A DNA stretch of 64,000 nt from Escherichia coli (lineage in GTDB: Bacteria; Pseudomonadota; Gammaproteobacteria; Enterobacterales; Enterobacteriaceae): assembly GCF_003018235.1 (NCBI RefSeq), contig NZ_CP027437.1, one strand, 5' to 3'. Positions 25,275 to 26,024 of the stretch are shown here, one piece after another. Each line of letters opens with the position of its first letter. Positions within the stretch are counted from its first letter, which is position 1. Position numbers and translations under genes: made by a program. The notes below the pieces were generated by a model. The model saw only the letters and a list, made by a program, of their open reading frames with translations, did not search any database and was not told the origin of the DNA.

Positions 25275-25559
25275 TTAGACTTCTTCTATTTCATATTTTA
25301 TAGACAATTCATGAAAGGCAGTAAATACCAGTGAAAATAATTTATCTCTATCACTTCCATTTAAATTATTTACAATGAAAAAACCATCCTCATGATCTTC
25401 TATTGAAAAATCAATCCAGTTTGAATAACTAGATGGAATCCAAAGTGAACCATCAGTATTAATCCGAGAGGATGGTTGATTTTCTTTTATTCTCTCGACA
25501 ATAAAAGAAAGTAAATTATCTACTTTATCATCAACATGTATAATATATTCAACACTCAT
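25275..25559 (-). CDS. Putative immunity protein for the orphan Rhs toxin tip (94 aa)
   Basis: Small AT-rich ORF 12 nt downstream of the orphan rhs-CT; no recognisable domain. Confidence 0.55.
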   Translation of the reverse strand: MSVEYIIHVDDKVDNLLSFIVERIKENQPSSRINTDGSLWIPSSYSNWIDFSIEDHEDGFFIVNNLNGSDRDKLFSLVFTAFHELSIKYEIEEV

Positions 25560-25571
25560 TAATTTCTTGCC

Positions 25572-26024
25572 TTATGCGCCGCACCCATGGGCTCGCCCTC
25601 GTTTTGTAGGATAATCATTTGGATTCCTGATCCCTATGTGTGTTTCATTCGGATTAGTACTCGGAATGCCTCTGTCATTCAGAGGTACCTCACCGGGATC
25701 ATATTTATGCACATGTGCGTTAGCCCCAGACTTAGGTAATGGATCACCGTTTTTCATCGTCATACTTTGATTTCCATAGGGATCGACACGAACTTTAGAG
25801 CCATCAGCGTGACTCCATGTCTGATTCCCGGTACTTGTTTGTTTATCCAAATTGAATCCATTATCAGTAAGAATAGAACCTATTGCCCCTGGGGATCTTC
25901 CTTTTAATTGAGGCAAATCAGAGGCGGCACTTAATCCAAGAGGATCTATCCATCCAAGAGGGTTAGGCGCATAAGCATACAGGTTTAACCCACCCGCCAG
26001 CCCTATCGGATCAGTACACAGATA
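25572..26024 (-). other. Orphan rhs C-terminal cassette: core-end remnant ([27 protein letters not shown]) plus a distinct ~115-aa toxin tip; no canonical start codon
   Basis: Frame is open from the stop at 26027-26025; 25931-26010 is nucleotide-homologous to 27001-27080 of the main rhs; track ORF start is a non-ATG (TTG) codon. Confidence 0.75.

What the first reader, a model, noticed from the sequence alone, without database searches (positions are those of the whole stretch)
25275..26024. Start-less orphan rhs toxin tip with its own immunity gene
25931-26010 is nucleotide-homologous to the core-end region of the main rhs (27001-27080) and encodes [27 protein letters not shown], followed by a different ~115-aa tip (…PQLKGRSPGAIGSILTDNGFNLDKQTSTGNQTWSHADGSKVRVDPYGNQ…). 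The frame opens right after a stop codon and has no ATG/GTG initiator, so it is a silent cassette that could be swapped onto the full-length rhs by homologous recombination. A 94-aa AT-rich ORF follows 12 nt downstream.
Basis: seen in the sequence. Interest (0 to 1): 0.55.

Follow-up and report, generated by a model that had tools for sequence, protein, structure and literature searches.

The report
Silent spare Rhs toxin-immunity cassette
Behind a full-length Rhs toxin gene in this E. coli strain sits a spare, untranslated toxin tip with its own intact immunity gene, a well-known arrangement whose toxin here belongs to an unstudied family that probably cuts DNA.

Summary
The window is the E. 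coli rhsE locus: vgrG, a DUF1795 chaperone gene, a 1554-aa rhs, rhsI, then the finding, all on the minus strand.

The true match to the main rhs is 26015-25922 against 27084-26991 (94 nt, 82%, E 5e-21). Rhs-core homology continues upstream of the TAA (26027-25025) to about 26075, so the stop is a nonsense codon inside a 150-nt core remnant.

The 119-aa tip and 94-aa ORF travel together as a pair. They are the active end of full-length T6SS Rhs genes in Enterobacteriaceae bacterium Kacie_13 and in a metagenome contig. They are orphans in E. coli 06-00048 and Pectobacterium, and only the immunity gene survives in Salmonella. Both are under purifying selection (dN/dS about 0.05).

Swapping onto the main rhs is possible in principle but poorly supported here. 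The longest identical block is 16 bp, against 522 bp at 95% in the Salmonella precedent.

Verdict: an ordinary orphan Rhs-CT/RhsI cassette, and a new member of a known kind.

The parts
25932..26075 (-). 5'-truncated rhs core-end fragment of the orphan ([48 protein letters not shown]). It carries the DPxG-(18)-DPxG / PxxxxDPxGL boundary motif.
   Evidence: Translation. tblastn with the main core end gives 67% over 49 aa, E 1e-18. blastn against the main rhs gives 94 nt at 82%. The upstream part is closer to the S. bongori Rhs end seen than to the main rhs of this window.
26025..26027 (-). In-frame TAA nonsense codon inside the core fragment (TGG TAA where related Rhs proteins have Gly-Gln).
   Evidence: The same TGG TAA is present in E. 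coli R32_14_1F. Compare CEAGQYLC in the S. bongori Rhs.
25572..25931 (-). Orphan Rhs-CT toxin tip, 119 codons plus stop. Conserved motifs are NQTWxHxDGSxVRVxPYGN, NAHVHK and ETHIGIRNP.
25275..25559 (-). Orphan rhsI: the 94-aa predicted cognate immunity gene. It begins 12 nt after the tip's stop codon.
   Evidence: Homologues lie directly downstream of the homologous tip in Kacie_13, L003, E. coli 06-00048 and Pectobacterium. dN/dS is 0.05-0.11. The AlphaFold2 model has pLDDT 92.
25235..25276 (-). Strong hairpin followed by a U-rich tail. It is the likely (bidirectional) terminator ending the rhs / rhsI / orphan transcription unit.
   Evidence: RNA fold: dG -29.5 kcal/mol, z -7.6. It is the only strong hairpin on this strand between 27200 and 25150.
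26991..27084 (-). Core-end segment of the main rhs that is homologous to the orphan. It is the only possible recombination substrate.
   Evidence: Exact blocks are 12, 14, 11 and 16 bp.
26647..31311 (-). Full-length main rhs (1554 aa), with its own unrelated tip at 26647-26990.
   Evidence: The core is 97-99% identical to RhsE-locus rhs genes of other E. coli, and the identity stops at 27001.
26139..26645 (-). Main rhsI (168 aa, counted from ATG 26645).
   Evidence: Its last 66 nt belong to a block shared with E. coli R32_14_1F.
27127..27155 (-). P2-like internal promoter in the main rhs (TCGACA-17-TACAAT). It lies at the position homologous to the Salmonella P2 promoter and could transcribe through to the orphan immunity gene.
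   Evidence: and the alignment to the Salmonella P2 sequence. Function is inferred, not shown.
31330..31782 (-). DUF1795 / DcrB-related (EagR-type) chaperone gene of the main Rhs.
   Evidence: The orthologue is annotated 'DcrB-related protein' in E. coli genomes.
31833..33746 (-). vgrG of the rhs operon. It lacks the first 31 codons relative to strain R32_14_1F because of an IS3-family insertion.

Best explanation
This is an orphan ('dissociated') Rhs C-terminal toxin/immunity cassette in the T6SS-linked rhsE locus of an E. coli strain.

Anatomy. A 150-nt remnant of an rhs core 3' end is already inactivated by a nonsense codon. It is followed by a 119-aa polymorphic toxin domain and, 12 nt later, by its cognate 94-aa immunity gene. 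A strong terminator closes the unit.

Toxin. In this strain the toxin part is not translated. It has no usable start codon or ribosome-binding site, and it lacks the PAAR, shell and VgrG-loading parts needed for delivery.

Immunity. The immunity gene has its own ATG and is most likely co-transcribed with the main rhs tip and rhsI. Transcription would come from the operon promoter or from the P2-like internal promoter at 27155-27127. The immunity protein would protect the cell against neighbours that deploy this toxin on a full-length Rhs.

Toxin activity. When the toxin is carried by a full-length Rhs, as in Kacie_13, it is cleaved off at the DPxGL boundary and delivered by the T6SS. Its fold points to a metal-dependent DNase of the PT7 type.

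Reactivation. Recombination onto the resident rhs is possible in principle but should be rare here, because the homology is short and diverged.

Shown: the anatomy, the homology, the pairing of toxin and immunity, purifying selection, and the fold match. Inferred: immunity function, co-transcription, nuclease activity and silence of the toxin.
For: - Locus layout: vgrG, DUF1795 gene, rhs, rhsI, orphan, on one strand. The flanking genes are E. coli narI-yddE at 99% identity.
- Core-end homology: 94 nt at 82%, E 5e-21. The frame continues upstream through TAA to about 26075.
- The same pair is the main C-terminus plus downstream gene of full-length Rhs operons. In Kacie_13 (VgrG, DUF1795, 1453-aa Rhs, 95-aa ORF) the tip is 83% and the ORF 49% identical. 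In L003 (VgrG, DUF2169, PAAR, 1548-aa Rhs, ORF) the tip is 70% and the ORF 40% identical, E 9e-24.
- The same pair is an orphan in E. coli 06-00048 and in Pectobacterium arrays. Only the immunity gene survives in Salmonella.
- The toxin domain lies at the C-terminus of 157 cluster representatives, 10 of them at least 1000 aa long.
- Purifying selection against the 06-00048 copy: tip 17 synonymous and 3 non-synonymous changes (0.044); immunity gene 9 and 2 (0.048).
- The terminator is the only strong hairpin on this strand in the unit.
Against: - There are no expression or toxicity data. The immunity role rests on conserved synteny alone.
- The link to PT7 is fold-level only. No sequence or profile search connects the two, and the catalytic residues could not be superposed.
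- The immunity model has a generic alpha/beta fold and does not retrieve PIM7.
- Promoter-like sites in the region are no more frequent than in shuffled sequence.
- Near-cognate starts remain (CTG at 26000, TTG at 25916), as do a -10-like TATCAT and a TGnTAATAT element. Low-level internal toxin expression is therefore not excluded.
- The high dS (0.25) between the two E. coli copies means the purifying selection was probably exerted mostly in other hosts or contexts, not in this strain.
Confidence: 0.8

Rival explanations
1. One reading: the cassette is a poised spare weapon. RecA-dependent recombination between the orphan's core remnant and the main rhs core end fuses the orphan tip to the full-length rhs and so switches the toxin that this strain deploys.
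For: - The mechanism has been demonstrated for the Salmonella LT2 rhs orphan (PMC3967940).
- The orphan is co-oriented with the main rhs and shares a 94-nt tract with it.
- The same tip is joined to a core 97.7% identical to this window's main core in E. coli 06-00048. The switch from main-like to orphan-like sequence falls at the DPLGL-coding block.
- The tip is the active end of a full-length Rhs of a similar core type in Kacie_13.
- The tip is under purifying selection.
Against: - The substrate is poor: 82% identity over 94 nt, with a longest exact block of 16 bp. The Salmonella case has 522 bp at 95%. From established knowledge, RecA recombination in E. coli falls steeply below about 25-30 bp of perfect identity and with mismatches.
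- Jackson et al. found that attached and dissociated core fragments in one locus are always identical (PMC2935791). That is not the case here.
- A simple deletion would also remove the main rhsI. A prior duplication would therefore be needed, as in Salmonella.
- No main-core::this-tip full-length fusion exists among 5,426 complete E. coli genomes.
Confidence: 0.2
2. The orphan is a self-expressed, type II toxin-antitoxin-like module, as reported for Salmonella rhs orphans. An internal promoter and a CTG start would produce low levels of free toxin, kept in check by the immunity protein. This would stabilise the locus or modulate growth.
For: - Salmonella main and orphan rhs-CT are expressed from an internal P2 promoter, with a transcription start 89 nt upstream of PxxxxDPxGL and a CTG start codon (PMC7043789).
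- The orphan here keeps a 5/6 -10-like TATCAT (26063-26058) at the homologous position and the CTG of DPIGL (26000-25998).
- The nonsense codon context TGGTAATAT (26030-26022) reads as an extended -10 element (sequence reading).
Against: - The core remnant is cut between the -35 and -10 elements. No -35 box is present at 16-18 nt spacing (read).
- The AGGA ribosome-binding site seen upstream of the CTG in Salmonella is replaced by CTGA.
- The promoter scan reports nothing on this strand between 26169 and 25542.
Confidence: 0.1
3. The whole cassette is a decaying relic with no current function, neither toxin nor immunity. It would be retained only by chance between the main rhsI and the ISEc1 insertion.
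For: - The core remnant carries a nonsense codon, is very short and is diverged.
- The neighbourhood is degraded: ISEc1 is truncated, the symE remnant is cut, and vgrG is truncated by an IS.
- The cassette is rare, present in 1 of 5,426 complete E. coli genomes.
Against: - Both the tip and the immunity reading frame are intact over 119 and 94 codons, in 27-45% GC DNA.
- dN/dS is about 0.05 for both.
- The immunity gene is kept at 94% nucleotide identity across genera, even where the tip has been destroyed in Salmonella.
- The immunity start codon and the terminator are intact.
Confidence: 0.07

Closest known systems
Salmonella Typhimurium LT2 rhs-CT(orphan)/rhsI(orphan), STM0292 (Koskiniemi et al. 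2014, PMC3967940; Starsta et al. 2020, PMC7043789)
   Same: Both are 5'-truncated rhs fragments with the core-end motif, a polymorphic toxin and an immunity gene. Both lie directly downstream of, and co-oriented with, a full-length T6SS rhs and rhsI. In both, the toxin lacks a normal start.
   Different: - The Salmonella orphan shares 522 bp at 95% with the main rhs and carries the complete internal P2 promoter, a ribosome-binding site and the CTG start.
- Here only 94 nt at 82% are shared. The fragment is cut inside the promoter region, the ribosome-binding site is absent, and an in-frame TAA is present.
- The toxin and immunity families are different.
Dissociated rhs tips created by C-terminal displacement in Enterobacteriaceae (Jackson et al. 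2009, PMC2935791)
   Same: A tip plus a core fragment sits in a silent position downstream of an intact rhs. The tip sequence is conserved across species and is laterally transferred.
   Different: That study reports that the core fragments of attached and dissociated tips within a locus are always identical and belong to the same clade. Here the orphan's core remnant is diverged from the main core. Its upstream part is closer to an S. bongori-type end (CE.GQYLC.DPIGL).
Full-length Rhs QLK63643.1 plus QLK63644.1 of Enterobacteriaceae bacterium Kacie_13 (CP045666.1)
   Same: It has the same toxin domain (83% aa identity) and the same immunity family (49%). The operon type (VgrG, DUF1795, Rhs) matches the window's main rhs.
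   Different: There the tip is the active, attached C-terminus of a 1453-aa Rhs. Here it is detached and untranslated.
PT7(Bc)-PIM7 polymorphic-toxin DNase (Nachmias et al., bioRxiv 10.1101/2021.10.19.465003; PDB 8OWU)
   Different: - No sequence or profile similarity is detectable.
- The tip is about 40 residues longer.
- PT7 is reported on LXG/T7SS proteins of Firmicutes and in some Proteobacteria.
- The immunity model does not resemble PIM7 in the fold search.
Orphan cdiA-CT/cdiI modules (Poole et al. 2011, PMC3150448)
   Same: The logic is the same: start-less toxin tips with intact immunity genes, arrayed downstream of a full-length polymorphic toxin gene and carrying a short stretch of homology to it.
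   Different: The delivery system differs (CdiA/CdiB two-partner secretion) and so does the boundary motif (VENN rather than PxxxxDPxGL).

Membership tests
Orphan Rhs-CT/RhsI module (dissociated rhs tip) | Lies directly downstream of, and co-oriented with, a full-length rhs and its rhsI | tested here: met
   Main rhs is at 26647-31311 and rhsI at 26139-26645. The orphan starts at about 26075 on the same strand.
Orphan Rhs-CT/RhsI module (dissociated rhs tip) | Starts with a 5'-truncated fragment homologous to the rhs core 3' end, including PxxxxDPxGL | tested here: met
   It is the only second core end in the 64-kb window.
Orphan Rhs-CT/RhsI module (dissociated rhs tip) | The toxin part lacks its own translation-initiation signals | tested here: met
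   No in-frame ATG or GTG precedes the middle of the domain. TTG 25916 and the CTG codons have no Shine-Dalgarno sequence. TAA lies upstream. Actual silence was not measured.
Orphan Rhs-CT/RhsI module (dissociated rhs tip) | The polymorphic tip is followed by a small cognate immunity gene | tested here: met
   The tip and the 94-aa homologue are adjacent in five independent contexts, and their divergence is rank-correlated.
Orphan Rhs-CT/RhsI module (dissociated rhs tip) | The core fragment is (near-)identical to the core of the attached main rhs, so it can serve as a recombination substrate | tested here: not met
   94 nt at 82%, with a longest exact block of 16 bp. Compare 522 bp at 95% and 'always identical'.
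Orphan Rhs-CT/RhsI module (dissociated rhs tip) | The tip is toxic and is neutralised only by its cognate immunity protein | not testable with these tools
   Requires expression cloning.
Rhs core/toxin boundary (C-terminal autoproteolysis motif) | DPxG-(18 residues)-DPxG, with PxxxxDPxGL immediately before the toxin | tested here: met
   [27 protein letters not shown] read. The motif definition comes from PMC7043789 and from established knowledge of Rhs structures.
PT7 DNase toxin family (PDB 8OWU) | The same fold | tested here: met
PT7 DNase toxin family (PDB 8OWU) | Detectable sequence or profile homology | tested here: not met
   phmmer and two profile searches against PDB sequences do not retrieve 8OWU.
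PT7 DNase toxin family (PDB 8OWU) | Catalytic residues equivalent to PT7 D37 and H47 | not tested
   No residue-level superposition was available. The candidates in the tip are H41, D43, H73, H75, K76, D86 and H98 (invariant or nearly so).
PT7 DNase toxin family (PDB 8OWU) | A PIM7-like immunity partner | tested here: inconclusive
PT7 DNase toxin family (PDB 8OWU) | Metal-dependent DNase activity | not testable with these tools
   Biochemistry is required.
Internally expressed Rhs-CT TA-like module (P2 promoter, Starsta et al. 2020) | A -35/-10 promoter about 89 nt upstream of the PxxxxDPxGL-coding sequence | tested here: not met
   The orphan has only TATCAT at the -10 position, and the -35 is lost at the fragment boundary. 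The main rhs does have TCGACA-17-TACAAT there.
Internally expressed Rhs-CT TA-like module (P2 promoter, Starsta et al. 2020) | A ribosome-binding site plus the CTG start at DPIGL | tested here: not met
   The CTG is kept (26000-25998), but AGGA is replaced by CTGA.

The most novel reading that the evidence does not exclude
The tip may define a widespread, so far unannotated polymorphic-toxin domain family.

- It has at least 150 clusters at 50% identity.
- It is carried on Rhs, PT-HINT and other giant carriers across Proteobacteria and Bacteroidota.
- It may be a distant, enlarged relative of the recently solved PT7 DNase fold, with its own His-rich active site (WxHxDGS, NAHVHK, THIGI) and its own dedicated immunity family.

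If so, it would be a new nuclease-toxin family. This locus and the Kacie_13 operon would provide a ready toxin/immunity pair to test it.
Probability: 0.4. Interest if true: 0.4.

Novelty: new member of a known kind. Interest (0 to 1): 0.25.

Why it matters
Orphan Rhs tips are a textbook feature of enterobacterial genomes, so the finding does not change how these loci are understood. Three points have modest value.

1. It gives a clean toxin/immunity pair from a domain family with no Pfam or NCBIfam model. The fold-level link to the PT7 DNase makes the activity directly testable.
2. It is a natural example of an orphan whose recombination handle has eroded: 94 nt at 82%, a nonsense codon, and a lost promoter -35. 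This bears on whether orphan arrays are armouries of swappable toxins or mainly stores of immunity genes.
3. The immunity-only copy in Salmonella and the intact immunity gene here fit the view that selection acts mainly on the immunity gene.

Tried and rejected
1. I first read the E. coli R32_14_1F locus as carrying the window's main tip and rhsI as an orphan, which would have been direct evidence of a swap. blastn showed this was wrong. Only a 266-nt block is shared (window 26204-25939: the last 66 nt of main rhsI, the intergenic region and the TAA-bearing core remnant).
2. Pfam, NCBIfam and PDB sequence searches gave nothing useful for the tip, the immunity protein, the main tip or the main immunity protein. 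The only Pfam hit, Tcp10_C at E 0.004, is noise.
3. I tried to link the tip family to PT7 by sequence, using profiles of the whole family and of its most divergent members. Neither retrieved it.
5. I tested whether the immunity model resembles PIM7. Only generic alpha/beta matches were returned.
6. An Rfam scan of 24000-27500 found nothing meaningful.
7. The consensus promoter scan found no more sites than in shuffled sequence. It also missed the real terminator, whose loop is 10 nt, so I re-scanned by folding.
8. I searched for this tip on a full-length rhs in E. coli. It is absent from 5,426 complete genomes in both near and distant modes. It was found only outside E. coli.

Full report
**Context**

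The window is E. coli chromosome. narI-yddE matches 5,395 of 5,426 complete E. coli genomes, with a best identity of 99.2%. The finding lies in the rhsE-type locus between yddH/nhoA and ansP. On the minus strand the order is:

- vgrG (31833-33746)
- a DUF1795 / DcrB-related chaperone gene (31330-31782)
- a 1554-aa rhs (26647-31311)
- its immunity gene (26139-26645)
- the finding
- a truncated ISEc1 / H-repeat element (about 25174-24632)

The main rhs core is 97-99% identical to rhs genes of 236 E. coli genomes. That identity stops at 27001, the core/tip boundary.

**Checking the observation**

- After TAA (26027-26025) the frame reads [31 protein letters not shown].
- A 119-aa tip follows, ending at 25572.
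- A 94-aa ORF begins 12 nt later (25559-25275), in DNA of 27% GC.
- The similarity to the main rhs is real: blastn gives 94 nt at 81.9%, E 5e-21.

Two corrections apply. The true pairing is 26015-25922 against 27084-26991, and the stated pairing gives only 26/80 ungapped matches. Second, rhs-core similarity continues upstream of the stop in the same frame, as [17 protein letters not shown], to about 26075. The TAA is therefore a nonsense codon within a 150-nt core remnant, at a position where related Rhs proteins have Gly-Gln. The same TGG TAA is present in E. coli R32_14_1F, so it is not a sequencing accident of this strain.

No ATG or GTG precedes the middle of the toxin domain. TTG 25916 and several CTG codons exist but have no Shine-Dalgarno sequence.

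**Is it a real toxin/immunity pair?**

The tip has no Pfam, NCBIfam or PDB sequence match, and the ORF has none either. Comparative data settle the question.

| Context | State of the pair | Tip identity | ORF identity |
|---|---|---|---|
| Enterobacteriaceae bacterium Kacie_13: VgrG, DUF1795, 1453-aa Rhs, then a 95-aa gene | attached C-terminus | 83% | 49% |
| Metagenome contig L003: VgrG, DUF2169, PAAR, 1548-aa Rhs, then an ORF | attached C-terminus | 70% | 40% (E 9e-24) |
| E. coli 06-00048, rhsC/ybf locus | orphan on a 590-codon open core fragment | 97.5% | 97.9% |
| Pectobacterium, arrays behind full-length PAAR-Rhs genes | orphan | 88% (P. parmentieri) | 58% (P. parmentieri) |
| Salmonella enterica | tip cut away by an IS; immunity gene kept at 94% nt identity | - | 97% |

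A profile search of 1.8 billion cluster representatives finds the toxin domain at the C-terminus of 157 proteins. Ten of them are at least 1000 aa long (Rhs and other giant carriers), and some are fused to PT-HINT.

Between the window and the 06-00048 copy, the tip has 17 synonymous and 3 non-synonymous changes (dN/dS 0.044). The immunity gene has 9 and 2 (0.048). Both are thus protein-coding sequences kept by selection. One caveat applies: dS of 0.25 implies that the two copies diverged largely outside these strains.

**What the toxin probably does**

The tip family has invariant or nearly invariant His, Asp and Lys residues: H41, D43, H73, H75, K76, D86 and H98. This fits a metal nuclease.

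The link is fold-level only. No sequence or profile search connects the families. I could not superpose catalytic residues. The immunity model (pLDDT 92) has a generic alpha/beta fold that does not retrieve PIM7. I rate the DNase assignment at about 0.4.

**How the cassette most likely works here**

The toxin part lacks a start codon, a ribosome-binding site and all delivery domains, so in this strain it is most likely silent. The immunity gene has its own ATG.

The only strong hairpin on this strand between 27200 and 25150 lies immediately after it, at 25276-25235 (dG -29.5 kcal/mol, z -7.6). The main tip, main rhsI, orphan tip and orphan rhsI therefore look like one transcription unit.

The main rhs carries TCGACA-17-TACAAT at 27155-27127. 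This is the position homologous to the experimentally mapped Salmonella P2 internal promoter, whose transcription start lies 89 nt upstream of PxxxxDPxGL (PMC7043789). That promoter could supply transcripts reaching the orphan immunity gene. Co-transcription and immunity function are inferences.

**The recombination idea**

The principle is established. In Salmonella LT2, recombination across 522 bp at 95% identity fuses the orphan tip to the main rhs after a duplication (PMC3967940). In E. coli 06-00048 this same tip sits on a core 97.7% identical to the window's main core, and the switch from main-like to orphan-like sequence falls at the DPLGL-coding block.

In this window, however, the only shared tract is 94 nt at 82%. 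Its exact blocks are 12, 14, 11 and 16 bp. The upstream 60 nt are much more diverged and resemble an S. bongori-type core end. This departs from the rule that attached and dissociated core fragments in a locus are identical (PMC2935791). It also falls below what RecA recombination normally needs, which is established knowledge rather than something tested here. I therefore regard reactivation in this strain as possible but rare.

**The internal-expression rival**

Compared with Salmonella P2, the orphan keeps a 5/6 -10-like TATCAT (26063-26058) and the CTG of DPIGL. The fragment boundary removes the -35, and the AGGA ribosome-binding site is replaced. The nonsense-codon context TGGTAATAT could act as an extended -10 element, but this is only a reading of the sequence. 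Low-level toxin expression is not excluded, but it is not favoured.

**Comparison with what is known, and verdict**

This is an orphan Rhs-CT/RhsI cassette of the kind described by Jackson et al. 2009, Poole et al. 2011 and Koskiniemi et al. 2014. It meets all structural criteria except one: it lacks a good recombination handle.

It is rare in E. coli, present in 1 of 5,426 complete genomes. Its toxin and immunity families are unannotated.

Novelty: a new member of a known kind. Interest: low to moderate (0.25). What interest there is lies mainly in the uncharacterised PT7-like toxin family and in the eroded, apparently 'decommissioned' state of the orphan.

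Noticed in passing
window 33734-34914: An IS3-family element (orfA 34615-34914, orfB 33764-34618) abuts vgrG. Compared with E. coli R32_14_1F, the window's vgrG lacks its first 31 codons and its native upstream region, although an in-frame ATG at 33734 remains. The whole vgrG-rhs operon may be cut off from its own promoter.
   Followed up: partly
window 27127-27155 (minus strand): The main rhs contains TCGACA-17-TACAAT at the position homologous to the mapped Salmonella P2 internal promoter. An in-frame ATG (27090-27088, RFMVTDPIGL) lies downstream of it. 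The main tip could therefore also be expressed internally.
   Followed up: partly
window 26139-26990: The main Rhs tip (26647-26990) and its 168-aa immunity gene (26139-26645) have no significant Pfam or NCBIfam match, and no nucleotide match in 5,426 complete E. coli genomes. They are as rare and uncharacterised as the orphan.
   Followed up: partly
window 25939-26204; L002 13113-13378: A 266-nt block is shared at 90% with E. coli R32_14_1F. It comprises the last 66 nt of the main rhsI, the intergenic region and the TAA-bearing core remnant. In R32_14_1F it follows a different immunity gene and is followed by ISEc1 rather than a tip. The last roughly 20 codons of the window's main rhsI thus seem to be borrowed from an older junction.
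   Followed up: partly
window 25159-25230 (plus strand): This is a remnant of the last 24 codons of a SymE-family toxin gene (tblastn E 0.005). It is convergent with the orphan immunity gene and is cut by the ISEc1 end at about 25174. SymE genes sit antisense between orphan modules in the E. coli, Pectobacterium and Kacie_13 arrays.
   Followed up: partly
window 24466-25174: The ISEc1 / H-repeat (ISAs1-family) element is truncated at about 24632. The 187-aa ORF (24466-25029) has the transposase N-terminus fused to unrelated sequence.
   Followed up: partly
window 35296-36218 (minus strand): Two overlapping small genes lie upstream of the IS and vgrG. One is a 189-aa protein with an HEMMH zinc-peptidase-like motif. 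The other is a 118-aa predicted lipoprotein (MKRFFLFFFLSGC...). They look like a second T6SS effector/immunity pair, and R32_14_1F has two hypothetical genes at the same place.
   Followed up: no
window 21389-22746: A second IS3-family element (orfA/orfB, plus strand) is inserted between yddE and nhoA.
   Followed up: no
L004 5922-6385 (Salmonella enterica GCA_006881245.1): This is an immunity-only copy. An IS (DDE_Tnp_1) has removed all but the last 22 or so codons of the tip, while the 94-aa immunity gene is intact at 94% nucleotide identity to the window. It lies inside a Salmonella rhs orphan array.
   Followed up: partly
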